Shown here one piece after another: positions 952 to 28,529 of a stretch of DNA of 28,822 nt (within the stretch, counting starts at the first letter, position 1; every line of letters begins with the position of its first letter). The notes beneath the pieces are model-generated. The model saw nothing but the letters and a program-made list of their open reading frames with translations. It was not told the DNA's origin and did not search any database. This DNA comes from Candidatus Hodarchaeota archaeon. GTDB taxonomy: Archaea > Asgardarchaeota > Heimdallarchaeia > Hodarchaeales > Hodarchaeaceae. The stretch spans positions 1-28,822 of the forward strand of contig JAEOTC010000045.1 in the NCBI GenBank assembly GCA_016840035.1. The letters run 5' to 3'. A program made the position numbers and the translations under genes.

Positions 952-2037
952 ATGGGAAAGATTAGAGTAGCAATCGCAGGATTAGGTAATTGTGCTTCGG
1001 CTTTAATTCAAGGTGTTCACTATTATCGCAATGAAAAACCTGATACAAGAGTTCCAGGCTTAATGCACGTCAAATTTGGTGATTACCATGTGCGTGATTT
1101 AGAATTTGTCGCAGCGTTTGAAGTCAATAAAGACAAAATCGGGAAAAAAATTAGTGATGCAATCTGGGTAGAGCCTAATTGTACACCAAAGTTCTCTGAT
1201 GTCCCTGATATCGATGTTATTGTTCAACCTGGACCAATAAATGATGGGGTTGCTTCTCATATGATGGATTCATTTCATTGTTATGACGAATCGAAGATGA
1301 GTCCAGTAGATGTGGCTCAAGTATTGAAGGACGCGAAAGCTGATGTTCTAGTTAATTTTCTCCCTGTGGGAAGTGAGGAAGCTACCCGTGTTTATGCCCA
1401 AGCCTGTTTGGATTCTGGAGTTTCCCTTGCTAATGGGATTCCTACGTTTATTGTTTCAGATCCCTCTAAAGAATGGCCAAAGAAATTTGAGGAGAAAGGG
1501 ATTCCTATTGCAGGAGATGATATTAAATCTCAAGTCGGCGCAACTATTTTGCACAGAGTATTAGCGAAATTAATGCTTAATCGTGGAATTGAAATTGATA
1601 AAACCTATCAACTCAATGTTGGTGGTAACACTGATTTTGAAAACATGAAGTATGAAGCTCGTTTAAAGACGAAACGGATAAGCAAAACAGAAGCAGTTAC
1701 AAGTTTAATGCCTCATGATGTTCCTACACGTATTGGTCCCTCTGATTATGTTCCCTTTCTAGGAGATAGGAAAATATGCTATCTATTACTCGATGGTCGG
1801 AAGTTTGGTGACCAACCAGTCTCCATTGAAGCGAAATTAAGTGTTATTGATAGTCCCAATTCCGCCGGGGTTATGATAGATGTTATTCGTGCCTTAAAAA
1901 TTGCCAGAGATCGGAAGATTGGTGGTCCATTAATCTCAATGTCTTCTTACTCATTTAAGCATCCTCCAGTTCAAATACCTGATTTCGAGGCTCATGAACG
2001 AGTTGAAGCCTTCATTCGGGGAGAAGTTGAGAGATAA
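952..2037 (+). CDS. ino1: myo-inositol-1-phosphate synthase
   Basis: Motifs 'AIAGLGNCASALIQG', 'NFLPVGSEEA', 'GDDIKSQVGATILHR', 'QLNVGGNTDF', 'DSPNSAG'. Confidence 0.97.
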   Translation: MGKIRVAIAGLGNCASALIQGVHYYRNEKPDTRVPGLMHVKFGDYHVRDLEFVAAFEVNKDKIGKKISDAIWVEPNCTPKFSDVPDIDVIVQPGPINDGVASHMMDSFHCYDESKMSPVDVAQVLKDAKADVLVNFLPVGSEEATRVYAQACLDSGVSLANGIPTFIVSDPSKEWPKKFEEKGIPIAGDDIKSQVGATILHRVLAKLMLNRGIEIDKTYQLNVGGNTDFENMKYEARLKTKRISKTEAVTSLMPHDVPTRIGPSDYVPFLGDRKICYLLLDGRKFGDQPVSIEAKLSVIDSPNSAGVMIDVIRALKIARDRKIGGPLISMSSYSFKHPPVQIPDFEAHERVEAFIRGEVER

Positions 2038-2052
2038 ATTCTTGAATAGCAC

Positions 2053-2991
2053 TTGGTGCTTGATTTGAACTTCAGATCACTTTTTCGCGACATTTACGAT
2101 CTAATACGATTTCCTTTATGTATAATGGGTTCTCTTGCGGGGTTTACTGCAGGACTGATAGTATTACTCGTTCAAAATCCTGGATATGATATTGGAACTC
2201 TACTTGCCGAATATTGGCAATTTGGGGTATTAGGATTATCCATTCCGTTTTTTATTGTAGGAGCTTCCATGGCAATTAACGATTATCATGATTTTGAATC
2301 CGATAGGATTAATGGGAGGATGGATAGACCACTTGTAAGGAATCCCAATATAAAACCAAGCTACGTATTATATGGGTCAATTCTCATGATTGGATTAGGT
2401 GTCCTAATTGCGTTTCTTTTATTTTCAGACAATCTTCTTGTTCCTTTAGGAGTAGTCCTTTTCAGTTTCCTGTCGATTTCATATAATTTGTGGACAAAAG
2501 ATAAAGGTATTCTTGGAAATATTACAGTCGCAACGAGTAATACAGCTCCTTATTTATTAACTCTTGTTGCTCTTGAAGCGAGAGATACAAGTACGGTACT
2601 TGTTGTTTTTGTTATGGCTATCATTACATTTTGTGGTGTATTAGGAAGAGAATTGGTAAAGGGAATTATGGATATTGAGGGTGATCGCATTACAGAATCT
2701 CGTACTTTTGCTGTTCAATATGGTCCGAAGAAAGCAGTTCAATTAGCATCTTTCTTGTTCCTAATTTTAATAGTCCTCATTCCATTACCAATGTTTATCA
2801 AATTTCAAAACAATTATTTTTATTTGATTTTGATGGTAGTTACTGTTTCAATGTTTCTTTACACGGTTATGATTTTATATAATGACCCTTCTGTTAACTC
2901 AGGAATAAAAGCAAGGTCTTATACTCGAACGGCACTCTGGATTGGATCTGCAGCTTTTTTAGTTGGTGCACTTGCCCTTTCTGGAGTCTAA
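2053..2991 (+). CDS. UbiA-family prenyltransferase, likely digeranylgeranylglyceryl-phosphate (DGGGP) synthase
   Basis: Multi-pass membrane protein with 'INDYHDFESDRIN..DRPL', 'YNLWTK..GILGNI' and 'RELVKGIMDIEGD' Asp-rich motifs. Confidence 0.85.
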   Translation: MVLDLNFRSLFRDIYDLIRFPLCIMGSLAGFTAGLIVLLVQNPGYDIGTLLAEYWQFGVLGLSIPFFIVGASMAINDYHDFESDRINGRMDRPLVRNPNIKPSYVLYGSILMIGLGVLIAFLLFSDNLLVPLGVVLFSFLSISYNLWTKDKGILGNITVATSNTAPYLLTLVALEARDTSTVLVVFVMAIITFCGVLGRELVKGIMDIEGDRITESRTFAVQYGPKKAVQLASFLFLILIVLIPLPMFIKFQNNYFYLILMVVTVSMFLYTVMILYNDPSVNSGIKARSYTRTALWIGSAAFLVGALALSGV

Positions 2992-3002
2992 GCTAGTCTA
3001 AT

Positions 3003-4391
3003 ATGGGATTAAATTTGTTCGGCGATCCAAAAGTGTTTACATGGCAAATTGCTCAAAAATCTAAGTTACGAGAAGGATCTGAAGGTGTTTATAAGATCAT
3101 CAGACAGCTATATAGGTACCAACACCAGAAAATCACGAATAAAGAATTTGCACGGATTGTTGGAATTCCTGTCCCCGTTATTTCCGCAGTTCGGGGAGAG
3201 TTATTAAAGACTGAATTCTTGAAAACTAAAAACATACTTACAGAAAAAGCAATTTCATGGCTCGAAAAGGAACTAGGATTGAGATTTGAAAATTCATTCT
3301 TCCAAGATTTTGATGCCTCCTCCTTCTCAATTACGAATGAATGTTTAGAGTTTTTTAAGCCGGTTATTGATGCTTTACAAACTCGTCCCTCTCCTGAATA
3401 TAAATATGATCAAACAAGGAGTACTATTGAGACAGTATTAAAGCGCGCACTAATAATGGCCCGAAATGGAGACGTAGAAGGAAGAAAAATTGTTTTATTG
3501 GGTGATGATGACGGTCTGTCTATGGCACTTGCCCATTTAAACTGCGCTCAAGAAATTTTTGTCATTGATATTGATTCACGGATTTTAAAGGTAATTGATG
3601 ATTTTTCTGAACAAAATAAATTCTCTACAGTAGTACAAACGCATCTATGGGACATAAGAACAGCTTTTCCTGAAGAATGGCTGAATCGATTTGATACATT
3701 TGAAATGGATCCCCCTTATACTGTTTTAGGCTTCAAATTATTTGTAAATCGCGCCCTTTCGTTAATTGATCCAGAATCGAATTCCCACGGGTATATTTCA
3801 TTTGGGAATAAGACCCCATTGGATAAATGGGAGTGCCAAGACTTCATAAATAGCAATGGACTCGTAATCGAGGAATTCATTCCAAATTTCAACCAATATA
3901 TTGGGGCAACAATACTGGGTAGTTCATCAAACCTTTATATCGTTGGTTCTATCCCTGAGAAAGTATGTAGAACGGAACTAGGGGATCAAAAGCAAGCAAT
4001 CTATACGTTTGATGAAAAAAAGGTTAAAGAACTACCTACGGTTGGCTACCAAATCCTGGCAGAATTTTATGGTGTTAAGAGGAAGATTTTAACTGAACCT
4101 ATCTATCTAAAGGAAATTGTAAGCAAAGGATTGAACCAAAGTCAACTTCACACTGAGGAAGTTTTTCTAAAAGAGTATTCTCCCTACGGACTCTCCCTTA
4201 TCTTTATCTTAGTAGAAAGTCACTGTCATATTCACACATGGCCAGAACATGATTATTTATCCTTGGATTTATTCGTCTGTGAAGCAAAAGAAAAAGCCGA
4301 AACATTCTTCCGCTATATTATAAAAACAATCAATCCAGTTGATTACCATAAATTTCAGTTTTTTCGGGGACAACCTCCGTTAACAGATTGA
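3003..4391 (+). CDS. bpsA: Fusion: N4-bis(aminopropyl)spermidine synthase-like (BpsA/DUF43) N-terminal region + pyruvoyl-dependent S-adenosylmethionine decarboxylase-like (SpeD/SpeH) C-terminal domain
   Basis: BpsA motifs 'YDQ', 'GDVEGRKIVLLGDDD', 'DIDSR', 'FDTFEMDPPYT', 'PNFNQY'; from about nt 4038 'GYQILAEFYG...SPYGLS..ILVESHCHIHTWPEHDYLSLDLFVC..RG', with the E-S autocleavage site at 4215-4220. Confidence 0.88.
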   Translation: MGLNLFGDPKVFTWQIAQKSKLREGSEGVYKIIRQLYRYQHQKITNKEFARIVGIPVPVISAVRGELLKTEFLKTKNILTEKAISWLEKELGLRFENSFFQDFDASSFSITNECLEFFKPVIDALQTRPSPEYKYDQTRSTIETVLKRALIMARNGDVEGRKIVLLGDDDGLSMALAHLNCAQEIFVIDIDSRILKVIDDFSEQNKFSTVVQTHLWDIRTAFPEEWLNRFDTFEMDPPYTVLGFKLFVNRALSLIDPESNSHGYISFGNKTPLDKWECQDFINSNGLVIEEFIPNFNQYIGATILGSSSNLYIVGSIPEKVCRTELGDQKQAIYTFDEKKVKELPTVGYQILAEFYGVKRKILTEPIYLKEIVSKGLNQSQLHTEEVFLKEYSPYGLSLIFILVESHCHIHTWPEHDYLSLDLFVCEAKEKAETFFRYIIKTINPVDYHKFQFFRGQPPLTD

Positions 4392-4410
4392 TCTTAAGGT
4401 GTAAAATGGA

Positions 4411-5061
4411 ATGTCTAGTCGTTTAGATGATCAAAATCAAGAATTTCATTTCCTAAACGAACTTGGTAGAAAAGCGGTCCATTTATCAGTCTTAATTATA
4501 CCCTTTAGTTATCACGTACTTAATATCGAATTATGGTTTATCCAATTATCTCTTTTCGGAGTTTTATGCTTTTTTTTACCAATGGAACTCTATCGACTCA
4601 AAATTAATCCTAGAACTTGGATAAATTATATTACACGAGAGGCAGAGAAGGATGAACCAGCAAATTATATTCTTACCACACTAACCTGGTTAATCGTATT
4701 ACTTGGAGTTTATTGGTTTTATTCAATGGAAGTGGCAGAGTTAGCATTAGTGGCAACTGTGCTTGGAGATTCAGCTGCTGCACTGATTGGAAGAGGAGTT
4801 GGGCAGCATAGACTACCTTTCACAAGAGATAAAACTGTAGAAGGATATTTTGGGGGTGTATTTTTTACTTATTTGTTTGGATTCGTATTTCTCTATTTAA
4901 TCGGGTCTCCTTCATTCGTTCTTCCACTTTTACCAGCAATTACTGTAGCAATATTTGATTTCTTCGAAGATCTCCCTTATTGGGCTGCAGATAATTTATT
5001 TCATCCATTGATAACCCTCCTTTTCGCATATGTTCTGACCCTCATTGGGATTATTAGCTAG
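4411..5061 (+). CDS. CTP-dependent polyprenol/phytol/dolichol kinase family membrane protein
   Basis: 'ELGRKAVHL', 'GDSAAALIGR..G.H.LP...KTVEG' and C-terminal 'DNL' motifs; hydrophobic segments. Confidence 0.85.
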   Translation: MSSRLDDQNQEFHFLNELGRKAVHLSVLIIPFSYHVLNIELWFIQLSLFGVLCFFLPMELYRLKINPRTWINYITREAEKDEPANYILTTLTWLIVLLGVYWFYSMEVAELALVATVLGDSAAALIGRGVGQHRLPFTRDKTVEGYFGGVFFTYLFGFVFLYLIGSPSFVLPLLPAITVAIFDFFEDLPYWAADNLFHPLITLLFAYVLTLIGIIS

Positions 5062-6300: not shown

Positions 6301-6936
6301 TTACTCTTTTTCTTCCTCATTAGACTTTTCTTTTGATTCTTCTGTAGAAGACTGAACTTCTCTCTCTGCAAGTTTTAATTTTACGTAGCTATCCCATTCC
6401 TCTTGATTGGTTTGGAATTTCTCTTCCCATTCTTTTGTGAGTGTTAATAATTGATTATCGTGTTCAGTTTTAATTGTAGAGAGTTGAGATTCTAATTCTT
6501 TCACCATAGTAGTTAATCGAGAGTATTGTTGCAAAGTCTCTTCTTTTTCAGTTTCCAAAGTTTTGGCTCTCTGTTCTAAAATATTAATTTGTTTTTGTAA
6601 TCCGTCAACTTCAGCTTCTTTTTTCACAAGAGTATCTTGAAGGCTTTCAAGGGCATTGGTGTCTGTTTGATCACTTTTCTTAGCCTGGCTTCTGGTTTTT
6701 TTGGCAATGCTAATGGAGTATTGATTAAGTAGATCCTGATTGATCTTTATAAGCTGATCAGTAATCTCTCGAACAAAGCTTTCTGCTTGATACACGGGTA
6801 CACTTGAATGAGCAGGAACTCGACGAGGAATTGACTGTAAAAAAGTATCACGAGATTCTCCTAACTGTGTTTTAGACTCAGATATAAGAGGATCAAACAA
6901 TTTCATTATGAAGTTACCAAGATCAGAATCGGACAT
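6301..6936 (-). CDS. Coiled-coil protein of unknown function
   Basis: Long heptad-patterned, Q/E/K-rich C-terminal half; start moved to ATG at 6936, which is preceded by a GGAGTGA RBS-like sequence. Confidence 0.7.
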   Translation of the reverse strand: MSDSDLGNFIMKLFDPLISESKTQLGESRDTFLQSIPRRVPAHSSVPVYQAESFVREITDQLIKINQDLLNQYSISIAKKTRSQAKKSDQTDTNALESLQDTLVKKEAEVDGLQKQINILEQRAKTLETEKEETLQQYSRLTTMVKELESQLSTIKTEHDNQLLTLTKEWEEKFQTNQEEWDSYVKLKLAEREVQSSTEESKEKSNEEEKE

Positions 6937-7112
6937 CAAATCACTCCAAAAAAATGCATTATTGTAGGGGAGAATATTCACTCTTTTTAATTTTGGTATT
7001 CGTTAGAGTTCTTTTTCCTTACCTTTATAATAGATCGTTGGAAGAAAAAAATAGGGTTAAATCTACATTTATGATAGATAAAAAGAATCTCAGAAAAACG
7101 GTGATCTGTGAA

Positions 7113-7481
7113 ATGTCTTATCAAGATGATATGAACGCATTAATTCAGAATGGATATGTGTCCATTGTTACAATATTCGATCCAAATGGCGCTACTTACT
7201 GGACAAACCAACCAGAGTGGCAAGTTGATGGTCCAACTCTGATTAATTCCTGGAAAAATAAGGAACCTGGAGTAAATGTTGCTGGAGTTCGTTATTCAAG
7301 TATGGTTAATGATTGGGAAGCAGGTAGCTTTGTCGCAAGGAATGTTGGTGGAGCAGGAATTATAGTTTTGGTTCGCGCTCCAAATAATTATTACTTCTTA
7401 ACATGGACTCCTGGGGATGTACAGATTCCTTCAATTAATGTCCATGGTGAAGTTTTTAAGATGGCAGCTAAATTTAAGTAA
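7113..7481 (+). CDS. Profilin (Asgard-type actin-monomer-binding protein)
   Basis: 122 aa from ATG 7113 (GGTGA at 7100-7104): 'MSYQ..', 'TIFDPNG', 'W', 'GVNVAGVRY', 'VARNVGGAGIIVL' and a C-terminal helix match profilin conserved elements. Confidence 0.88.
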   Translation: MSYQDDMNALIQNGYVSIVTIFDPNGATYWTNQPEWQVDGPTLINSWKNKEPGVNVAGVRYSSMVNDWEAGSFVARNVGGAGIIVLVRAPNNYYFLTWTPGDVQIPSINVHGEVFKMAAKFK

Positions 7482-7520
7482 TCTCCTCTCCATTCCTCTC
7501 TTTCCTTTTTTTCCCCTCTG
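7482..7520 (+). terminator. Pyrimidine/oligo-T tract, probable archaeal terminator after profilin
   Basis: Nearly pure C/T run containing a T-tract, immediately after the stop codon. Confidence 0.45.
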
Positions 7521-7640
7521 ATTTATCTCTCTTTCCTTCTGTCATACTTCTTTAATAAGTCAAGGAGAACAAACACTAAAGTTCTCTCAGTAGTCAGTTT
7601 ATATTCATTACTGACTCCTAAAACGCTAGATGAGAATCCT

Positions 7641-16609: not shown

Positions 16610-17593
16610 TTAAGCGTTAGCTGAACTTCGTTTTTTGCGAACCCAAGCAGTAGGATCTTTGATAACTACTGGTTTTGCTGCAGCTCCCCTTTTCACTTCG
16701 AACTTTTCCATACCTAAACCACGAGCTAATTCTTTGAATCGATTTCTAATTGTTACAGGAGTAGTTCTTGCTGGAACAGCAATTTGTTGTTGGGTGCGAC
16801 GTTCACCTGTCTGAATAGAGGCAATATAGATTGCTGCAGCTGCGAGTGACATTGGAATTTTGCCGATGGTCAATTTTTTCTCTCTAGCTTCCACTAGAAT
16901 GTCGATAGCAATTTTACGGGTATACATTGTTAGACCCAAATTCTCTCCAAGACGATTTACTAGAGTGATTGGATCAGTGGATGTTTTATTCATGTTAACA
17001 TTCTGAAGGAAAATTCGAATACATCTACCTAATTCTTTGGAAGAAATATTTGCAACCTCTGAAGTATCTTTTAATGTGATTGCAGTCCCTTTCTTACGAC
17101 AAGCTAAATAGATTGCAGCACTCATCATTCCTATTACAGATCGCCCTTTGATTAGGTCTTTTTTGAGAGCTAATTTGTAGATATGAACAGCCGTCTCACA
17201 TGTATCATCCGATAAATTCAAATGAGATCTGATGCGTTTTAATTCCATCAGTGCATTCTTCAAGTTACGTGTGGTTCGATCTTGGATTCGTTCATCCATG
17301 ACTGTTAAACGTGCAAATTTTGCTTGTGCTTCAGTATTTAGGGACTTCCCGTAAGAATCCTTGGATTTTCCACCAATAACTGTTCGAAGTTCATTATTAT
17401 TTAGTAATGTTGTAGGTAAACCAACCCTTACTCTTGATTTCTCTTCTTGTGCATTATAAGCTCGCCATTCAGGTTCATGACTGAATATTGCGCTGTTTGC
17501 TACTAATCCACATTCTGCGCATATAATTTCCCCGCGCTGATCGTCGTAAACCATTGCAGGACTGTTACATTCATTACAGCTCTCGTAAGCCAT
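16610..17593 (-). CDS. tfb: Transcription initiation factor IIB (TFB)
   Basis: Zn ribbon 'CNEC...GEIICAECG', 'PEWRAY', 'RVG.P', two cyclin repeats 'KGRS..AAIYLACR' and 'GK.P..LAAAAIY', 'VTIRNRFKEL'; start set at ATG 17593. Confidence 0.96.
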   Translation of the reverse strand: MAYESCNECNSPAMVYDDQRGEIICAECGLVANSAIFSHEPEWRAYNAQEEKSRVRVGLPTTLLNNNELRTVIGGKSKDSYGKSLNTEAQAKFARLTVMDERIQDRTTRNLKNALMELKRIRSHLNLSDDTCETAVHIYKLALKKDLIKGRSVIGMMSAAIYLACRKKGTAITLKDTSEVANISSKELGRCIRIFLQNVNMNKTSTDPITLVNRLGENLGLTMYTRKIAIDILVEAREKKLTIGKIPMSLAAAAIYIASIQTGERRTQQQIAVPARTTPVTIRNRFKELARGLGMEKFEVKRGAAAKPVVIKDPTAWVRKKRSSANA

Positions 17594-17901
17594 GTTAAGA
17601 CTCTCCAAAGGAAAAAATTGATACAATAATTCTCGTTCGTACCACATTTCTCGGTGAGCGATAGATGATTAATCGCTTATAAAAAAATACCTAGAGAATC
17701 TATCCATAATATATGAAAGTAATATGTTTTTTATGCTAGTATATAAATTGAGTAATAAGTAAATTCTCAAGATTCAATTGTTGCTTCGACTGATTACCAA
17801 GTAGAAATTGTGATTTCTCCAATTAAGATCATTGTTTTTGTTGAAACTTCCCTGAAGTTTAATGATTTTTTCATTGAAATGGAAGTATGATAAAACCACG
17901 C

Positions 17902-23582: not shown

Positions 23583-23765
23583 GTGATAAAGATCATCCAA
23601 ATTGATGCTAAATCTTGCGTAGGTTGCGCCTATTGCTTCATGGTTTGTCCTGTAAAGGGTTTTAAAGTCGAAGGAATATCACGTTTTCAGAACAAATGCA
23701 ACAAATGTACTCAGTGTATCTATAATTGTCCTGTGGGTGCTATACGAGCTACTTGGGAGGAATAA
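23583..23765 (+). CDS. 2x[4Fe-4S] dicluster ferredoxin
   Basis: Two CxxCxxCxxxCP motifs in 60 aa. Confidence 0.92.
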   Translation: MIKIIQIDAKSCVGCAYCFMVCPVKGFKVEGISRFQNKCNKCTQCIYNCPVGAIRATWEE

Positions 23766-23767
23766 TA

Positions 23768-25054
23768 ATGGTACAGAATTATGATGTATTTATTGGTGGG
23801 GGTGGTCTTGGAGGATTGTTAACTGCATCACTATTGTCTCAACAGGGAAAATCAGTTTTCTTAGCCGAAAGATTACCATTTTTTGGGGGACGTTTTTCCA
23901 CTCATAGTCTCGATGGCTATGAGATTCCTACTGGAGCAGTTCATATGATCCCTCATTCTCAAAGAGGAATTCTAGGACAAATGCTGTTGAAGAATTTATC
24001 ACTTCCTCTTAAAATAGTGGATACACATAATTTTACAACTTGGTACTGGAAAAACCGACAACCAATAAGTCACAAAAGATTTTGGGGTTTTTTTCGTGCG
24101 ATACCAAAATGGAAACAGCGGTTTTTCACTTTTCGAAGATTGCTGTTAGATCGAAGTGAGATTCATAATAATTCGTTAACATTTCATGATTTGCTAAGCT
24201 CTAAGACAGACGATCCCCAAATCTTTAAATTTTTCAATGCAATTACTGGTTTCGCCCTGAGCTTGGATATCTCAGAAATGACAGCTAAAACAACTTACCA
24301 GTTCTTAGATCGATTGTATAAAAGTGGTAAAGCAGGGGTTCCAATTGGAGGCTGTAAACGAGTGATCGAGAACCTGGTAAATTTTTCCCAGACTCATAAG
24401 TCCGTTCTTAAAAAGAATACGCAACTTATCAAGCTTGAAACCGATGGGGATAGAATCAAAACCATCATTCTTCGTCATACACGAACAAATGAGGAATTAG
24501 AAATACAGGCTGAGGAATTTATCTTGAATTTGGGGATTAATCAGATCAATTCGATCTTAGAAAGAAGTAAGGTAAATTTTCGTCTACCTTCACTCCCCGA
24601 TGCGATAGGTGGAGGCTTTGCTTTTAAATCAAAATCCTCTCTGTTAAAAAAATCTACTGTTGCACAATTTCCTGATTGCGAGTATGTTAAAGGAGCAGTA
24701 GAACCTTCACTTATTTCCCCCGAGTTAGCACCTAAAGGGAGTCATCTTTTTCTAACCCATCAAGTCTTCGGATCCAAGGATGTTGAAACCGCTACAAAAT
24801 GTGCGAGAGATGAAATTCTTGAATTATTTCCGTCTCTTCATGAGGAGGATGAATTATGCATTCATACATTCCATCGAGATTGGCCAGTTAATAATACAAT
24901 GCAGGGTTTAGATAATAAGAATTTTTCTGATGTATATTCTAACTTAAGTTTTGTTGGTGACGGTTTCAAAGGTAATACTGGTTGGTTCATGACTGAAGGA
25001 GTAGCTTTCGGTACGCAAAAGGTCACAAATCATATTTTGAACAAGAAATCTTAA
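23768..25054 (+). CDS. Phytoene desaturase-like (COG1233) FAD-dependent oxidoreductase
   Basis: 'GGGLGGL', 'ER..FFGGRF', 'TGAVHMIPH', 'P.GG', 'LAPKG', 'VGDG...EG'; ATG 23768 preceded by GGAGG, 2 nt after the ferredoxin stop. Confidence 0.85.
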   Translation: MVQNYDVFIGGGGLGGLLTASLLSQQGKSVFLAERLPFFGGRFSTHSLDGYEIPTGAVHMIPHSQRGILGQMLLKNLSLPLKIVDTHNFTTWYWKNRQPISHKRFWGFFRAIPKWKQRFFTFRRLLLDRSEIHNNSLTFHDLLSSKTDDPQIFKFFNAITGFALSLDISEMTAKTTYQFLDRLYKSGKAGVPIGGCKRVIENLVNFSQTHKSVLKKNTQLIKLETDGDRIKTIILRHTRTNEELEIQAEEFILNLGINQINSILERSKVNFRLPSLPDAIGGGFAFKSKSSLLKKSTVAQFPDCEYVKGAVEPSLISPELAPKGSHLFLTHQVFGSKDVETATKCARDEILELFPSLHEEDELCIHTFHRDWPVNNTMQGLDNKNFSDVYSNLSFVGDGFKGNTGWFMTEGVAFGTQKVTNHILNKKS

Positions 25055-25188
25055 TCCCCCCTTATGGTTGTTGTTTTTCGGTACTTTCTGAAGGTTGAGA
25101 AAAAGTACACTTTACCCTCCCAAATAAATCGAAAGGCATAAATGATTAAAAATTGAAAATCTGTCAATACTCACAATGAGGTGTTTCT

Positions 25189-26316
25189 ATGAAAAAACAA
25201 GTTGTAGTCATATTCATGTTTATACTCTTCATCATTAGTATTCATCCTTTATCAGCAAAAAACACGGGAGTGAATCAACAATTAGGAAAAATTGCGGTTA
25301 TAATAGATTCTCCTGAATTCTATCACGCTTCCTATACTGATGATATCCTTAACGGATTTAACTACATAAATCAAACGTATTCAATAGATGTGGATATCAT
25401 CCAACTTACAAACTACACACTTGTCAATAGGGCTCCGTATGAGATTACATACACTTACAATGGATCATCCACGAATCAAACACAACTTGTTGAGATGTTA
25501 ATTCAAAGAAACCAGTATGATTTAATAGTATTTATAGGATATGAATTGAGACGGGGATTTGATGTATCTGAATTTCCTGAAACCGATTTTCTATTTTATG
25601 ATTTGTCGGGGGAATTTCCTGCATTTGAAGGAGGTAATATTCCGGAAAATCTTTTCATAGTTAACTTCAAAGATAATGAGCAGGCATTTCTCGCTGGTTC
25701 TTTAGCTGTGATGGAATTTTATCCTTTACCCACAAAAATTGGGATTGTAGGTACTTGGAACGGAGATTCAAGAACTCGTTACCTAATTGCTGGTTTCCAG
25801 AGTGCCCTCTTCCGAAATACTACGAATGTAGATATTTCGATCGCTTATGTTGATACTTGGATTGACCAAGAAAAAGTAAAAGAGATTAGTTCTGATTTTA
25901 CTACTCAAGGAATAGAACTTGTTTTTACAGCACTTCAAGCAAATAATACACTTGTAATGCTTGAATCATTCACTGGAGGGGATGTAGTGAGTATTGATTT
26001 AAATCAATCAAAGAGTGTAATGAAAAATAATACTCGTGTGCTAACAAGTGTGTTTAAAACTTTCAATACAAGCGAAGGGTTTTTTGGAGGTGTATCTGCA
26101 TCATTTGGAATAACTGATCAGATCTTCTATTCTAATGGATGGTCTGATCCTGTGAGTGCAAATAAGACTTTAGTTGGAATACAGGACGAAATTGCCTCTG
26201 GTGATCTTGTTGTACCTACAGATATAAAGTATGCTTCAAATACACCAAGTATATCGATAGTTTTGATAATTCTAGCAATTCTACCTCTCTTATCTTTAAG
26301 AAAAAAGAGAAGATGA
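25189..26316 (+). CDS. BMP/PnrA-family (nucleoside-binding) solute-binding protein with C-terminal membrane anchor
   Basis: Signal peptide; 'YDLIVFIGY', 'EFPETDF', 'F.DNEQAFLAGSLA', 'KIGIVG', 'AGF', 'IASG.L.VP'; C-terminal TM + RKKRR. Confidence 0.82.
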   Translation: MKKQVVVIFMFILFIISIHPLSAKNTGVNQQLGKIAVIIDSPEFYHASYTDDILNGFNYINQTYSIDVDIIQLTNYTLVNRAPYEITYTYNGSSTNQTQLVEMLIQRNQYDLIVFIGYELRRGFDVSEFPETDFLFYDLSGEFPAFEGGNIPENLFIVNFKDNEQAFLAGSLAVMEFYPLPTKIGIVGTWNGDSRTRYLIAGFQSALFRNTTNVDISIAYVDTWIDQEKVKEISSDFTTQGIELVFTALQANNTLVMLESFTGGDVVSIDLNQSKSVMKNNTRVLTSVFKTFNTSEGFFGGVSASFGITDQIFYSNGWSDPVSANKTLVGIQDEIASGDLVVPTDIKYASNTPSISIVLIILAILPLLSLRKKRR

Positions 26317-26351
26317 CAGCTATCTAAGTTTTAAGGTTGGAAAGTAACTTC

Positions 26352-27149
26352 ATGAACGAATCTATTTGTATTATCGGTGGTTCGGGTTTCTATGACTTCT
26401 TATCCTCTCCCTCTGAGAAATTAGTGGAAACTCCATTTTGCTCTGAACCTGTAGTATTATATCATTCGAGAGTAAATGAGAAAGATCTATATTTTTTACC
26501 CCGTCATGGAAAAGGCCATTCAATTCCACCCCATCGCATAAATTTCAAAGCAAATATCTATGCTCTTCATCTCCTTTCCGTTTCAAGAGTTTTATCTACC
26601 AGTGCAGTTGGTAGTGTCCGAACTAAGATAAAACCTGGAAAATATGTTCTTCTAGATCAATTTATCGACTTTATTCGACCTATTACATTTTTTGAAGGTG
26701 ATTTTAAGGTCGATTTCCCTGATGGAAATATGCTATCAGGGGTAATTCATACTGATATGACTCATCCCTACTGTCCTGATCTCCGTTCTCATATCTCAAA
26801 AGTCTTATCAAAATTCTCCCATTTTCAATCCGAGGGAACATATTTTTGTGCTGCAGGTCCACGATTCGAGACTCCCGCAGAAATTAAGGCTTTACAAGCA
26901 ATGGGTGCAGATGTGGTGGGTATGACCAACTCTTCAGAGGCAATTCTATGTCGTGAACTAGGTATTTGTTACAGTTCAATAGCAGTAGTTACTAATTTCG
27001 CTGCAGGACTTCAAAAAGAAGTGAATCATCAGGAGGTTGTCGAGTTATTTAACAAACGCGCTTCTGAATTAAAAACGATATTGAATGATATAATAGAAAT
27101 CCTTCCTGGCATTAAAACCTGTTCGTGCAAAAGCCATATCTCAAAATAG
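26352..27149 (+). CDS. mtnP: MTAP-family purine nucleoside phosphorylase (methylthioadenosine/methylthioinosine phosphorylase)
   Basis: 'IIGGSG', 'FLPRHG..H.IPPH.IN..ANI', 'AVGS', 'DQFID', 'GPRFETPAE', 'VVGMT', 'TNFAAG'; TTG 26337 is an alternative start. Confidence 0.92.
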   Translation: MNESICIIGGSGFYDFLSSPSEKLVETPFCSEPVVLYHSRVNEKDLYFLPRHGKGHSIPPHRINFKANIYALHLLSVSRVLSTSAVGSVRTKIKPGKYVLLDQFIDFIRPITFFEGDFKVDFPDGNMLSGVIHTDMTHPYCPDLRSHISKVLSKFSHFQSEGTYFCAAGPRFETPAEIKALQAMGADVVGMTNSSEAILCRELGICYSSIAVVTNFAAGLQKEVNHQEVVELFNKRASELKTILNDIIEILPGIKTCSCKSHISK

Positions 27150-27356
27150 GGGTTGAGCTGATAATTGATTATGATTTGAATCTCTTCCATAGAAGTGATA
27201 TTATTTTTCTTCCCCAAGAACAGATTGAATTTTGTTAGGTTATCGAGATAAAGAACACTACTCTTAAGTAACAATCTCAGAATGAATTTTTCAAGAGATA
27301 AATCCACTTTCCAGAAGTAGAATTCTGGAAGTGTTGAAATATGGAAGGTTAATTCA

Positions 27357-28529
27357 ATGGTTCAAACAGAACATCTATTCACCTCCGAATCAGTTACTGA
27401 AGGACATCCTGATAAAATGGCTGATGCAATCTCGGATAGTATCCTAGATGCCATCTTAGCAAAAGACCCAGAAGCACATGTTGCCTGTGAAACTTATTTA
27501 ACAACTGGTATGGCACTTGTTGGGGGAGAGATTTCTACTAATACTTATGTAGATATTCAAAAGGTCGTCCGTCAGAAGATAAAGGATATTGGGTATTTGA
27601 ATTCCGATATGGGATTTGATTATAAGAGTGTGGCGGTTTTAAATGCCATACATGAACAAAGTTCTGATATTGCTCAAGGTGTCAAAAAATCCACGCCTGA
27701 AGAACAAGGTGCTGGAGATCAGGGGATGATGTTTGGGTATGCATGTGCAGAAACTGAGGAATTTATGCCTTTACCTATTACATTAGCCCACAACTTGACT
27801 AGCAGATTAGCTGAAGTTCGAAAGACTGGAAAAATTTCATGGCTACGTCCTGATGGAAAATCTCAAGTTACAGTCGAATATAAAGGGAGAACACCTATTT
27901 CAGTAAGATCTGTTGTTCTTGCAGCGCAACATACCGAAGAGGTAACCCATGCTCAAATAAAAGAAGAACTTATTGAAACAGTAATCAAACCAGTAATTCC
28001 CTCAGTTTTTCTTAACGATGAAACAGAATTCTTCGTCAATGAGACTGGTAGATTTGTTATCGGAGGACCACACGGAGATACTGGACTCACAGGTAGAAAA
28101 ATAATTGTAGATACCTATGGCGGAGTGGGTTCTCATGGTGGTGGATGTTTTTCGGGGAAAGATCCTTCAAAAGTAGACCGATCTGGATCATATGCTGCAC
28201 GCTGGGCAGCAAAAAATGTTGTAGCCGCAGGATTAGCTGAAAAGTGTGAGATCCAGATAGCATATGCAATAGGGGTCGCAAAACCCCTATCTATATACTT
28301 AGAGACTAAAGGGACAAATAAAATACCTGAAAAAATAATACTTGATCTCATTAAATCTCATTTCGATTTCCGACCTGGGATGATTATTCAAAGATTAAAT
28401 CTCAAGAGACCAATTTATGCAAAAACAGCAGCTTATGGTCACTTTGGGAGAAATGATCCTGATTTCACTTGGGAAAAAACAGATGTTGCCTCACTATTAA
28501 AGGAAAATGCAGGATTTTTAGACAAGTAA
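27357..28529 (+). CDS. metK: S-adenosylmethionine synthetase, bacterial/eukaryotic type
   Basis: '[13 protein letters not shown]', 'GAGDQG', 'RPDGKSQV', '[14 protein letters not shown]', '[16 protein letters not shown]', 'YGHFGR'. Confidence 0.98.

What the first reader, a model, noticed from the sequence alone, without database searches (positions are those of the whole stretch)
3003..4391. BpsA::AdoMet decarboxylase fusion - self-supplying branched-polyamine synthase
Seen: a single ORF with intact BpsA motifs followed by a complete SpeD-like domain. Self-cleavage at E405-S406 would release a 57-aa pyruvoyl chain. Known: BpsA uses decarboxylated SAM to make branched polyamines and is characteristic of (hyper)thermophiles. 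Some SpeD homologs are instead arginine or ornithine decarboxylases. Inference: the fusion allows substrate channelling, and points either to a thermophilic host or relic or to a new acceptor. I do not recall this fusion being characterised.
Basis: partly seen in the sequence, partly recalled or inferred. Interest (0 to 1): 0.7.

Follow-up and report, generated by a model that had tools for sequence, protein, structure and literature searches.

The report
BpsA-like aminopropyltransferase fused to SAM decarboxylase
A Hodarchaeales (Asgard) archaeon encodes, in one self-cleaving protein, the enzyme that makes the aminopropyl donor for polyamine synthesis and a relative of the heat-lovers' branched-polyamine synthase; it is the genome's only enzyme of either kind, so it is more likely the lineage's basic polyamine synthase than a thermophile-style branching enzyme.

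Summary
Window 3003-4391 (+) is one 462-aa ORF with BpsA_C (residues 125-303) followed by a complete class-1b AdoMet decarboxylase (346-456). The E405|S406 site, H411 and C426 are intact.

It is not an artefact. The same architecture recurs in hundreds of proteins from Hod-/Heimdall-, Loki-, Thor-, Hermod- and Odin-labelled Asgard genomes, including closed ones, and in Xenorhabdus and Enterococcus.

- **Not canonical BpsA.** The transferase half is DPPYT with an invariant Lys270, where BpsA has DPPET and Glu259. It lacks an 18-residue BpsA insert, keeps only a remnant of the acidic tail, and sits in a separate tree clade.
- **No spermidine supplier.** Asgard families carrying this subtype have no SpeE, while canonical-type BpsA always co-occurs with SpeE.
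- **dcSAM use is supported.** Relatives in genomes without any AdoMetDC have GDSD or GDGD instead of GDDD.
- **No sign of hyperthermophily.**

Best reading (about 0.5): a self-supplying primary aminopropyltransferase that makes spermidine-type polyamines from putrescine or agmatine. The acceptor and product are untested.

I found no paper describing this fusion. The scan has met it before on other DNA, and two earlier follow-ups reached similar verdicts. It is a new variant of a known kind.

The parts
3003..4391 (+). Whole fusion ORF, 462 aa (P0001)
   Evidence: AF2 model has mean pLDDT 89.7 and pTM 0.75. Foldseek: BpsA 5XNC E 2e-22; AdoMetDC 1TLU TM 0.89, rmsd 1.8 A.
3003..3314 (+). N-terminal helical, winged-helix-like domain (residues 1-104)
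   Evidence: Helices in the model. Weak MarR hits in relatives. Residues 23-27, 51-55 and 104-107 lie in the predicted homodimer interface.
3375..3911 (+). BpsA_C (PF01861) Rossmann-type transferase core, residues 125-303; the match stops at profile position 187 of 243
3501..3512 (+). GDDD motif (G167-D170), equivalent to Tk-BpsA G157-D160, which positions the aminopropyl amine of dcSAM
   Evidence: Invariant in 112 fusions. Role taken from PMC12979288. Replaced by GDSD or GDGD in relatives from genomes without AdoMetDC.
3708..3722 (+). DPPYT motif (D236-T240); canonical BpsA has DPPET
   Evidence: Invariant in 112 fusions. Canonical and SpeE-linked types have E or D at the Tyr position.
3810..3812 (+). 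Lys270, invariant; aligned by HMMER to the substrate-binding Glu259 of Tk-BpsA (the register could be off by one)
3999..4016 (+). IYTFDE (residues 333-338): remnant of the BpsA C-terminal acidic 'lid' (canonical IYYDEE / LHVDEE), followed by a low-confidence linker
   Evidence: alignment. Y334 invariant. pLDDT 64-74 over residues 317-347.
4038..4370 (+). Class-1b AdoMet decarboxylase (SpeD) domain, residues 346-456
   Evidence: The only AdoMetDC hit in the genome.
4215..4220 (+). E405|S406 predicted autoprocessing site; S406 would become the pyruvoyl group
4233..4280 (+). H411 (equivalent to H68) and C426 (equivalent to C83), AdoMetDC processing and catalytic residues
   Evidence: both invariant.
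952..2991 (+). Upstream genes, probably co-transcribed: inositol-3-phosphate synthase (952-2037) and a UbiA-family prenyltransferase (2053-2991); gaps of 15 and 11 bp
   Evidence: Context only: the arrangement is confined to one GTDB family.
4411..5061 (+). Downstream gene 19 bp away: 216-aa membrane protein with six hydrophobic stretches, CTP_transf_1-like

Best explanation
The gene encodes a self-supplying aminopropyltransferase. Step 1: the C-terminal SpeD domain cleaves itself between E405 and S406 and turns S406 into a pyruvoyl group. This leaves a 46.5-kDa chain (transferase plus SpeD beta part) holding a 57-residue alpha chain. This step is inferred from intact residues. Step 2: that domain decarboxylates SAM to dcSAM (inferred). 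Step 3: the BpsA-family domain binds dcSAM through its GDDD loop and transfers the aminopropyl group to an amine, releasing MTA (inferred; supported by comparative evidence). Step 4: this is the only aminopropyltransferase and the only AdoMetDC in a genome that has a PLP Arg/Orn-type decarboxylase, agmatinase-like enzymes and deoxyhypusine synthase. The acceptor is therefore most likely putrescine or agmatine, and the product spermidine (directly, or via aminopropylagmatine), possibly extended further. This is the least certain step. On this reading the DPPYT/Lys subtype is the primary aminopropyltransferase in SpeE-less Asgard lineages. It would not be the secondary, spermidine-branching BpsA of thermophiles.
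For: Donor side:
- TIGR03330 equivalog scores above its cut-off. E354, S406, H411 and C426 are conserved, and most are invariant in 42 fusions.
- An HMM of the fusions' SpeD domain scores SpeE-operon-linked Asgard SpeDs at 77-93 bits. Orphan SpeD homologues in transferase-less genomes score only 30-33 bits.

dcSAM use:
- GDDD is invariant in 112 fusions.
- In 12 Asgard genomes with no AdoMetDC (11 of family f2, 1 of f21), the nearest relatives carry GDSD or GDGD. Every fused or SpeD-accompanied copy has GDDD. The one exception is an 87%-complete genome.
- Separate SpeD and BpsA-family genes lie adjacent in several other families, for example SpeD-SpeE-BpsA_C in f22.

Sole enzyme:
- The own genome (87% complete) has no SpeE by Pfam (best 20.5 bits) or by tblastn with two Asgard SpeEs. 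The fusion is its only AdoMet_dc and BpsA_C hit.
- DHS, a LysA-like PLP decarboxylase and an agmatinase-like gene are clustered on contig C293.

Phyletic complementarity in a 151-genome phylum sample:
- The DPPY + Lys/Arg + GDDD type (families f1, f13, f6, f26) never co-occurs with a real SpeE.
- The acidic types (DPPE/DPPD, families f12, f18, f20, f23, f25) and the DSxHC type (f11, f22) always do.

Other:
- No CASDC is found in any of the 151 genomes.
- Xenorhabdus and Enterococcus carry the fusion as an orphan gene, which fits a module that needs only common metabolites.
- GNAT fusions occur in the same subfamily.
- The homodimer prediction passed, through the transferase domain: score 0.65, best of 3 controls 0.00. 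That mark was reached by 20 of 30 proteins solved as pairs of one chain and by 1 of 23 solved as single chains. Runs agree in at least 60% of contacts and partner pLDDT is at least 79. BpsA oligomers are solved, so the pass may reflect likeness to them.
Against: - No enzymology exists for any DPPYT-type member, so the acceptor is inferred only from what is missing.
- DHS occurs in 144 of 151 Asgard genomes, but AdoMetDC in only 55. Spermidine synthesis by a known route is therefore evidently dispensable in the phylum, and DHS does not force a spermidine synthase here. The fusion is also patchy in Loki-type family f13 (7 of 25).
- An invariant Lys where BpsA has a polyamine-binding Glu could point to an acceptor with an anionic group rather than a polyamine.
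- The tight operon with inositol-phosphate synthase, UbiA and a CTP-transferase-like membrane protein could mean a lipid-linked role in this family.
- Families are few and related, so the co-variation patterns rest on perhaps 3-8 independent events.
- The genome is 87% complete.
- The predicted dimer does not show the SpeD-SpeD pairing that class-1b AdoMetDC uses.
Confidence: 0.5

Rival explanations
1. One reading: a self-supplying branched-chain polyamine synthase. It would add aminopropyl groups to N4 of spermidine, as BpsA (EC 2.5.1.128) does. The spermidine would be imported or made by the same enzyme.
For: Best sequence and fold matches are solved BpsAs: 5XNC at 6e-30 by sequence and 2e-22 by Foldseek. 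GDDD, Asp236 (equivalent to D225) and Tyr299 (equivalent to Y290) are conserved. An (I/L)YT-x-(D/E) remnant aligns with the acidic carrier tail. Tth-BpsA is a generalist (PMC12979288).
Against: Glu259 is not conserved (invariant Lys270). The motif is DPPY rather than DPPE. An 18-residue insert of canonical BpsA is absent, and the acidic cluster is reduced to one or two residues. The domain falls in a separate, well-supported clade. There is no SpeE to supply spermidine in any sampled fusion-bearing family, whereas canonical types always sit with SpeE. No hallmark of hyperthermophily is present.
Confidence: 0.2
2. The transferase aminopropylates a non-polyamine amine. In this family that might be a lipid head group or inositol-derived intermediate made by the co-transcribed genes. 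More generally it could be a small anionic metabolite, protein or nucleic-acid amine.
For: The MIPS-UbiA-fusion-CTP_transf_1-like operon is tight, with gaps of 11-19 bp. It is conserved in relatives down to 51% identity and in 10 of 10 genomes of the genus. The flanking UbiA and CTP-transferase-like genes are not the housekeeping pair: a true CarS and more than 13 UbiA paralogues lie elsewhere. One Loki-type copy has a PEMT/ICMT-like gene upstream. Invariant Lys270 and DPPY resemble amino-group methyltransferases, with weak RsmD and N6-MTase Pfam hits. The subfamily is also fused to LPG_synthase_C and PP-binding domains.
Against: The lipid context is confined to one GTDB family. The CTP-transferase-like gene was not found in f2, f3 or f6. 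Loki-type, Xenorhabdus and Enterococcus copies have unrelated, variable neighbours. Synteny in that family extends beyond the operon (a 129-aa ORF upstream, a 236-aa ORF and a PEP-utilizer gene downstream), so it may be plain collinearity. The fusion has no hydrophobic segment. Related stand-alone copies sit next to SpeD or a PLP Orn/Arg-type decarboxylase, which is polyamine context.
Confidence: 0.15
3. The SpeD-like domain is a neofunctionalised pyruvoyl arginine or ornithine decarboxylase (SpeDA/SpeDC). It would supply the acceptor (agmatine or putrescine) rather than the donor.
For: Such neofunctionalisation is widespread. It was recognised in genomes where a SpeD homologue lacks SpeE, and the processing residues are shared by all three activities (PMC10407285).
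Against: The genome would then have no source of dcSAM for a GDDD-type transferase. The domain passes the AdoMetDC equivalog cut-off. It resembles SpeE-operon-linked SpeDs far more than orphan homologues. The genome already has a PLP decarboxylase next to an agmatinase-like gene and DHS. GDDD co-varies with the presence of this domain.
Confidence: 0.05

Closest known systems
BpsA, N4-bis(aminopropyl)spermidine synthase (EC 2.5.1.128) of Thermococcus kodakarensis (PDB 5XNC/5XNF/5XNH) and Thermus thermophilus (6J27)
   Same: Same Pfam family and fold: an N-terminal helical domain plus a Rossmann transferase. GDDD, the Asp of DPP and the Tyr of FN-x-Y are conserved. The predicted dimer forms through the transferase domain. 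The donor is expected to be dcSAM.
   Different: DPPYT instead of DPPET. An invariant Lys aligns with Glu259. An 18-residue insert after FNEY is missing. The acidic carrier tail is reduced to D337-E338 and continues into a SpeD domain. It lies in a separate clade, in genomes without SpeE and without hyperthermophile hallmarks.
Class-1b AdoMetDC/SpeD (Thermotoga maritima 1TLU, Aquifex 2III)
   Same: Full-length domain with TM 0.89 and rmsd 1.8 A. The ES cleavage site, His, Cys and the N-terminal Glu are conserved. It scores above the NCBIfam equivalog cut-off.
   Different: It is appended to the C-terminus of a 345-residue transferase, so the beta chain would be 405 residues long. SpeD-SpeD dimerisation is not seen in the predicted homodimer.
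AdoMetDC-aminopropyltransferase fusion proteins of Ca. Pelagibacter (validated in E. coli delta-speD and delta-speE; PMC11107197)
   Same: Same logic: the donor-making and donor-spending enzymes sit in one polypeptide. This is the functional precedent for a self-supplying aminopropyltransferase.
   Different: There the AdoMetDC is N-terminal and the transferase is SpeE-type (PF01564), a ternary-complex SN2 enzyme. Here the order is reversed and the transferase has the BpsA fold.
Separate SpeD + BpsA_C-family gene pairs and SpeD-SpeE-BpsA_C operons in other Asgard families (f6, f11, f22, f23; loci L018-L021)
   Same: The same two activities are encoded side by side. The f6 pair (SpeD next to a DPPYT/Arg-type transferase, no SpeE) looks like the unfused equivalent.
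   Different: They are not fused. The f11, f22 and f23 partners are DSxHC or DPPET types accompanied by SpeE. Stand-alone DPPYT proteins end in a CxxC...CxxC zinc ribbon that the Asgard fusions lack.

Membership tests
Pfam BpsA_C (PF01861 / DUF43) superfamily | Significant match to the family profile | tested here: met
   161.3 bits against a cut-off of 27. The match covers only profile positions 10-187 of 243.
BpsA sensu stricto (EC 2.5.1.128) | GDDD motif that positions the dcSAM aminopropyl group (Tk D159/D160) | tested here: met
   G167-D170; invariant in 112 fusions.
BpsA sensu stricto (EC 2.5.1.128) | Acidic acceptor-binding residues: Glu259 and the Glu of DPPET | tested here: not met
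   Lys270 (or Thr271 in the other register) replaces Glu259, and DPPYT replaces DPPET. Both are invariant in the fusions.
BpsA sensu stricto (EC 2.5.1.128) | C-terminal flexible acidic cluster (Tk E339, D342-E345) acting as aminopropyl carrier | tested here: inconclusive
   The aligned segment IYTFDE keeps two acidic residues (one in Loki-type copies) and then runs into the SpeD domain.
BpsA sensu stricto (EC 2.5.1.128) | Groups with characterised BpsA in a family tree | tested here: not met
   In the FastTree of 159 catalytic domains, the canonical DPPE clade (support 99) is separate from the fusion clade (support 96). An 18-residue insert of canonical BpsA is absent.
BpsA sensu stricto (EC 2.5.1.128) | Works downstream of a spermidine synthase (SpeE) that supplies its substrate | tested here: not met
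   No SpeE in the own genome or in the sampled fusion-bearing families f1 and f13.
BpsA sensu stricto (EC 2.5.1.128) | Product N4-bis(aminopropyl)spermidine | not testable with these tools
   Needs LC-MS of polyamines.
Class-1b AdoMetDC (SpeD, TIGR03330) | Equivalog-level profile score over the full domain | tested here: met
   84.1 bits against a cut-off of 75.65, covering profile positions 2-112 of 112.
Class-1b AdoMetDC (SpeD, TIGR03330) | Glu-Ser self-cleavage site plus His68, Cys83 and Glu11 equivalents | tested here: met
   E405/S406, H411, C426 and E354.
Class-1b AdoMetDC (SpeD, TIGR03330) | Decarboxylates SAM rather than arginine or ornithine | not testable with these tools
   Indirect support only: the domain is closer to SpeE-linked SpeDs than to orphan homologues, and GDDD co-varies with its presence.
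AdoMetDC-SpeE-type fusion (Pelagibacter kind) | Transferase domain of the spermidine synthase family PF01564 | tested here: not met
   No PF01564 match in P0001. The domain order is reversed.

The most novel reading that the evidence does not exclude
In Hodarchaeales the fused enzyme does not act on a free polyamine. Instead it aminopropylates a product of its own operon (inositol-phosphate synthase, UbiA prenyltransferase, CTP-transferase-like membrane protein). That would create an aminopropylated inositol or ether-lipid head group, a lipid class not described so far.
Probability: 0.08. Interest if true: 0.85.

Novelty: new variant of a known kind. Interest (0 to 1): 0.55.

Why it matters
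If the DPPYT-type fusion is the primary aminopropyltransferase of SpeE-less Asgard archaea, then spermidine-type polyamines in the closest known prokaryotic relatives of eukaryotes are made by an enzyme of a different fold from the spermidine synthase that eukaryotes use. Characterised BpsA works by a ping-pong mechanism, so the mechanism probably differs too. None of the four Heimdallarchaeia genomes searched, nor the own genome, had a eukaryote-type class-2 AdoMetDC, although that search had no positive control.

This bears on where the eukaryotic AdoMetDC/SpdSyn pair came from. That origin has been said not to fit a simple Asgard plus alphaproteobacterium model (PMC10407285).

It would also show that the 'BpsA/DUF43' family is mostly not a thermophile branched-polyamine family. 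Current database names ('adenosylmethionine decarboxylase', 'N4-bis(aminopropyl)spermidine synthase') each describe only half of this protein, or the wrong activity.

Orphan copies in culturable, genetically tractable Xenorhabdus make the question directly testable.

Tried and rejected
- **Assembly artefact:** rejected. There are hundreds of independent copies, including closed genomes.
- **Eukaryote-type AdoMetDC (PF01536):** no hits in the own genome or in four f2 genomes, but no control genome rang either, so the result is weak.
- **Alternative spermidine route:** the CASDC model TIGR01047 hit 0 of 151 genomes. Complementary distribution with the fusion therefore could not be shown.
- **DHS as an argument for an obligatory spermidine synthase:** dropped once DHS proved near-universal (144 of 151) while AdoMetDC is present in only 55 of 151.
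- **Anti-phage defence role:** no meaningful PADLOC hit.
- **Literature:** seven full-text searches and readings of PMC12979288, PMC11107197, PMC12803844, PMC10407285 and PMC7576179 found no mention of a BpsA-AdoMetDC fusion or of BpsA in Asgard archaea. PMC6290158 is not held.
- **Channelling geometry:** the distance between the two active sites could not be measured, because model coordinates are not exposed.
- **Motif regex:** a first pass missed several loci and was replaced by phmmer-based column mapping.
- **Thermophily proxies:** they disagree mildly. IVYWREL gives about 49 C, while CvP, tRNA GC and reverse gyrase look mesophilic. I conclude only 'not a hyperthermophile'.
Full report
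**What is there.** Window 3003-4391 (+) is one uninterrupted ATG-started ORF of 462 aa.
- Pfam finds BpsA_C at residues 125-303 (E 3e-47) and a full-length AdoMet_dc at 351-456 (E 5e-23).
- The NCBIfam equivalog for class-1b AdoMetDC scores above its cut-off (84.1 against 75.65).
- An AlphaFold2 model built on 42 diverse homologues is confident (pLDDT 89.7, pTM 0.75). Only residues 302-304 and 339-343 fall below 50, and the linker at 317-347 scores about 64-74.
- Foldseek returns solved BpsA structures first (5XNC, E 2e-22) and T. maritima AdoMetDC for the C-terminal domain (TM 0.89, rmsd 1.8 A).
- The self-cleavage site is V404-E405|S406-H407.
- The equivalents of T. maritima E11, S63, H68 and C83 are all present. 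S406, H407, H411, W413, P414, E415 and C426 are invariant across the 42 fusions.

**Host and distribution.**
- The window is archaeal (TFIIB at 16610-17647) and has 35-36% GC.
- The closest homologues (81-87% identity) are labelled Candidatus Hodarchaeales.
- The two-domain architecture recurs in Hod-, Heimdall-, Loki-, Thor-, Hermod- and Odin-labelled Asgard records, including closed genomes of 3.2-4.9 Mb.
- It also occurs in Xenorhabdus species and Enterococcus sp., where it is an orphan gene. In X. budapestensis it lies beside a resolvase.
- It is therefore not an assembly artefact.
- Among 159 representatives of the transferase family, 26 carry the SpeD domain. The tree needs at least six gains or losses of the fusion.
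- The Heimdall-type and Loki-type Asgard fusions fall in one supported clade (17 rows, 15 fused, support 96).

**The transferase half is not classical BpsA.**
- Against Tk-BpsA (5XNC), GDDD, the Asp of DPP and the Tyr of FN-x-Y are conserved.
- The fusions read DPPYT where BpsA reads DPPET.
- HMMER aligns an invariant Lys270 to the substrate-binding Glu259. In the other possible register it is Thr271. Either way, no acidic residue occupies positions 268-272 in any of 112 fusions.
- Canonical BpsAs carry an 18-residue insert after FNEY that all DPPYT proteins lack.
- The acidic tail of canonical BpsA (IYYDEE / LHVDEE) is the aminopropyl carrier according to PMC12979288. Here it is reduced to IYTFDE, and the chain then continues into SpeD.
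- In the tree, the canonical DPPE clade (support 99) is separate from the fusion clade.
- Most of the nearest 150 cluster representatives are stand-alone DPPYT proteins with Lys or Arg at position 270. None has been characterised, as far as I could find.

**Evidence that it uses dcSAM.**
- In Tk-BpsA the middle Asp residues of GDDD salt-bridge the aminopropyl amine of dcSAM.
- I sampled 151 genomes of the phylum. Twelve genomes with a close DPPYT relative but no AdoMetDC at all (eleven of family f2, one of f21) carry GDSD or GDGD.
- Every fused copy, and every copy accompanied by a SpeD, has GDDD. The single exception is an 87%-complete genome whose sister has a SpeD.
- In other families, separate SpeD and BpsA_C genes are neighbours. 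Examples are SpeD-SpeE-BpsA_C in f22 and SpeD-BpsA_C in f6, f11 and f23.
- An HMM of the fusions' SpeD domain scores those operon-linked SpeDs at 77-93 bits. Orphan SpeD homologues in genomes without any transferase score 30-33 bits. This argues against a neofunctionalised Arg/Orn decarboxylase (background in PMC10407285).

**What the acceptor might be.**
- The own genome (87% complete) has no SpeE by Pfam (best 20.5 bits) or by tblastn with two Asgard SpeEs. The fusion is its only AdoMetDC and its only BpsA_C protein.
- Elsewhere it has a cluster of deoxyhypusine synthase, a LysA-like PLP decarboxylase and an agmatinase-like gene.
- Across the phylum sample the pattern is clean at family level. 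DPPY/Lys-or-Arg/GDDD proteins (f1, f13, f6, f26) never co-occur with a real SpeE. Acidic-type (DPPE/DPPD; f12, f18, f20, f23, f25) and DSxHC-type (f11, f22) BpsA_C proteins always do.
- Canonical BpsA needs SpeE's product. The DPPY type evidently does not.
- The simplest reading is that it takes the place of SpeE, acting on putrescine or agmatine.

**Caveats on the acceptor.**
- DHS is near-universal (144 of 151 genomes), whereas AdoMetDC is present in 55 of 151 and CASDC in none. Known spermidine synthesis is therefore dispensable in much of the phylum.
- The families are few and related.
- A conserved Lys in the acceptor site might instead indicate an anionic acceptor.

**The lipid-gene context.**
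- In this window the gene is flanked, with gaps of 11-19 bp, by inositol-3-phosphate synthase, a UbiA-family prenyltransferase and a CTP_transf_1-like protein with six hydrophobic stretches.
- The arrangement holds in relatives down to 51% identity and in 10 of 10 genomes of the GTDB genus.
- The genome has a true CarS and more than 13 UbiA paralogues elsewhere.
- Against a functional link: the CTP-transferase-like gene was not found in the other Heimdallarchaeia families searched. Loki-type, Xenorhabdus and Enterococcus copies have unrelated neighbours.
- Collinearity in this family also extends beyond the operon. The fusion itself is soluble.
- I keep a lipid or inositol acceptor as a minority rival and as the most novel reading not excluded.

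**Thermophily.**
- No reverse gyrase reaches the cut-off.
- Charged-minus-polar bias is -0.002 and tRNA GC is 0.58 (n=11).
- IVYWREL is 0.409, which gives a crude 49 C.
- Nothing indicates a hyperthermophile, so the enzyme is not a marker of heat adaptation here.

**Quaternary structure.**
- Two copies of the full protein are predicted to pair through the transferase domain (helix 272-284, strand 287-295 and parts of the N-terminal domain).
- The score is 0.65, with the best of 3 controls at 0.00. That mark was reached by 20 of 30 proteins solved as pairs of one chain and by 1 of 23 solved as single chains.
- The runs agree in at least 60% of contacts, and partner pLDDT is at least 79.
- BpsA oligomers are solved, so the pass may reflect likeness to them.
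- The SpeD domains are not in the confident interface, so how the class-1b dimeric active site forms remains open.

**Known or new.**
- A donor-plus-transferase fusion has a validated precedent in Ca. Pelagibacter: AdoMetDC at the N-terminus of a SpeE-type transferase (PMC11107197).
- A BpsA-fold transferase carrying a C-terminal SpeD appears in none of the papers I could search. That includes a 2026 review of branched-chain polyamines with no mention of fusions or Asgard archaea.
- Databases name the protein 'adenosylmethionine decarboxylase' or 'N4-bis(aminopropyl)spermidine synthase'.
- The scan itself has met this fusion before in other genomes. Two earlier follow-ups on Asgard genomes (e1-5695676, e1-5416159) reached the same core verdict, and one (e1-1548867) reports it in a CPR bacterium.

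- The GDDD/AdoMetDC co-variation.
- The family-level SpeE complementarity.
- The insert and tail comparison with canonical BpsA.
- The restriction of the lipid operon to one family.
- The Xenorhabdus and Enterococcus orphan copies.

**Verdict.** This is a new variant of a known kind.

Noticed in passing
L016:7888-9036(-) with L016:9138-10412(+); L017:7793-8953(+) with 6394-7668(-); L044-L053: Heimdallarchaeia family f2 (13 genomes, two of them closed) has no AdoMetDC and no SpeE. It keeps a DPPYT/Lys relative with GDSD or GDGD in place of GDDD, divergently adjacent to a LysA/ODC-like PLP decarboxylase. One idea: the transferase moves the aminocarboxypropyl group of SAM and the PLP enzyme decarboxylates afterwards, which would be an undescribed polyamine route.
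   Followed up: partly
window 952-5061: Tight operon of inositol-3-phosphate synthase (the genome's only copy), a UbiA-family prenyltransferase, the fusion and a CTP_transf_1-like membrane protein with six hydrophobic stretches. It is conserved in the GTDB genus (10 of 10 genomes). The CTP-transferase-like gene was not found in the other Heimdallarchaeia families searched.
   Followed up: partly
phylum sample: Deoxyhypusine synthase is found in 144 of 151 Asgard genomes. About two thirds of them have no AdoMetDC or SpeE, and none has CASDC. Where the aminobutyl donor for hypusination comes from in those genomes is unexplained.
   Followed up: no
L018:7400-8563(-), L016:7888-9036(-), P0125, P0162: Stand-alone DPPYT-type proteins of about 385-400 aa end in a CxxC...CxxC zinc-ribbon-like tail after the (I/L)YTGE motif. 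The Asgard fusions lack it. The Xenorhabdus fusion (501 aa) has both the ribbon and SpeD.
   Followed up: no
P0131, P0133, P0144, P0164, P0225; P0206, P0209; P0139; P0270: The same transferase subfamily is also fused to GNAT acetyltransferase, LPG_synthase_C, PP-binding (carrier protein) and RrnaAD-like methyltransferase domains.
   Followed up: no
L064:10001-11506; L065:8001-9551: Bacterial copies of the fusion in Xenorhabdus (eight named species or strains) and Enterococcus sp. are orphan genes. In X. budapestensis the gene follows a resolvase and a 1.7-kb gap, which suggests horizontal acquisition.
   Followed up: partly
L038:2031-4456; G146:C89: In family f10 a 130-aa SpeD is immediately followed by a 678-701-aa protein with only a partial BpsA_C match (profile positions 48-160). 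This is another architecture linking the two domains.
   Followed up: no
window 23726-28529: A run of genes for a flavin amine-oxidase-like protein (weak match), a Bmp/PnrA-like binding protein, MTA phosphorylase (TIGR01694-like, 239 bits) and bacterial-type SAM synthetase MetK. It is a SAM/MTA salvage neighbourhood about 22 kb from the fusion.
   Followed up: no
window 7641-10442 and 13120-15486: Two large DNA methyltransferase genes: one Eco57I/MmeI-like type IIG of 933 aa, and one N6_N4_Mtase of 788 aa.
   Followed up: no
window 6954-7481: A 175-aa ORF with a weak profilin match (E 0.007, below cut-off). It may be an Asgard profilin-like protein.
   Followed up: no
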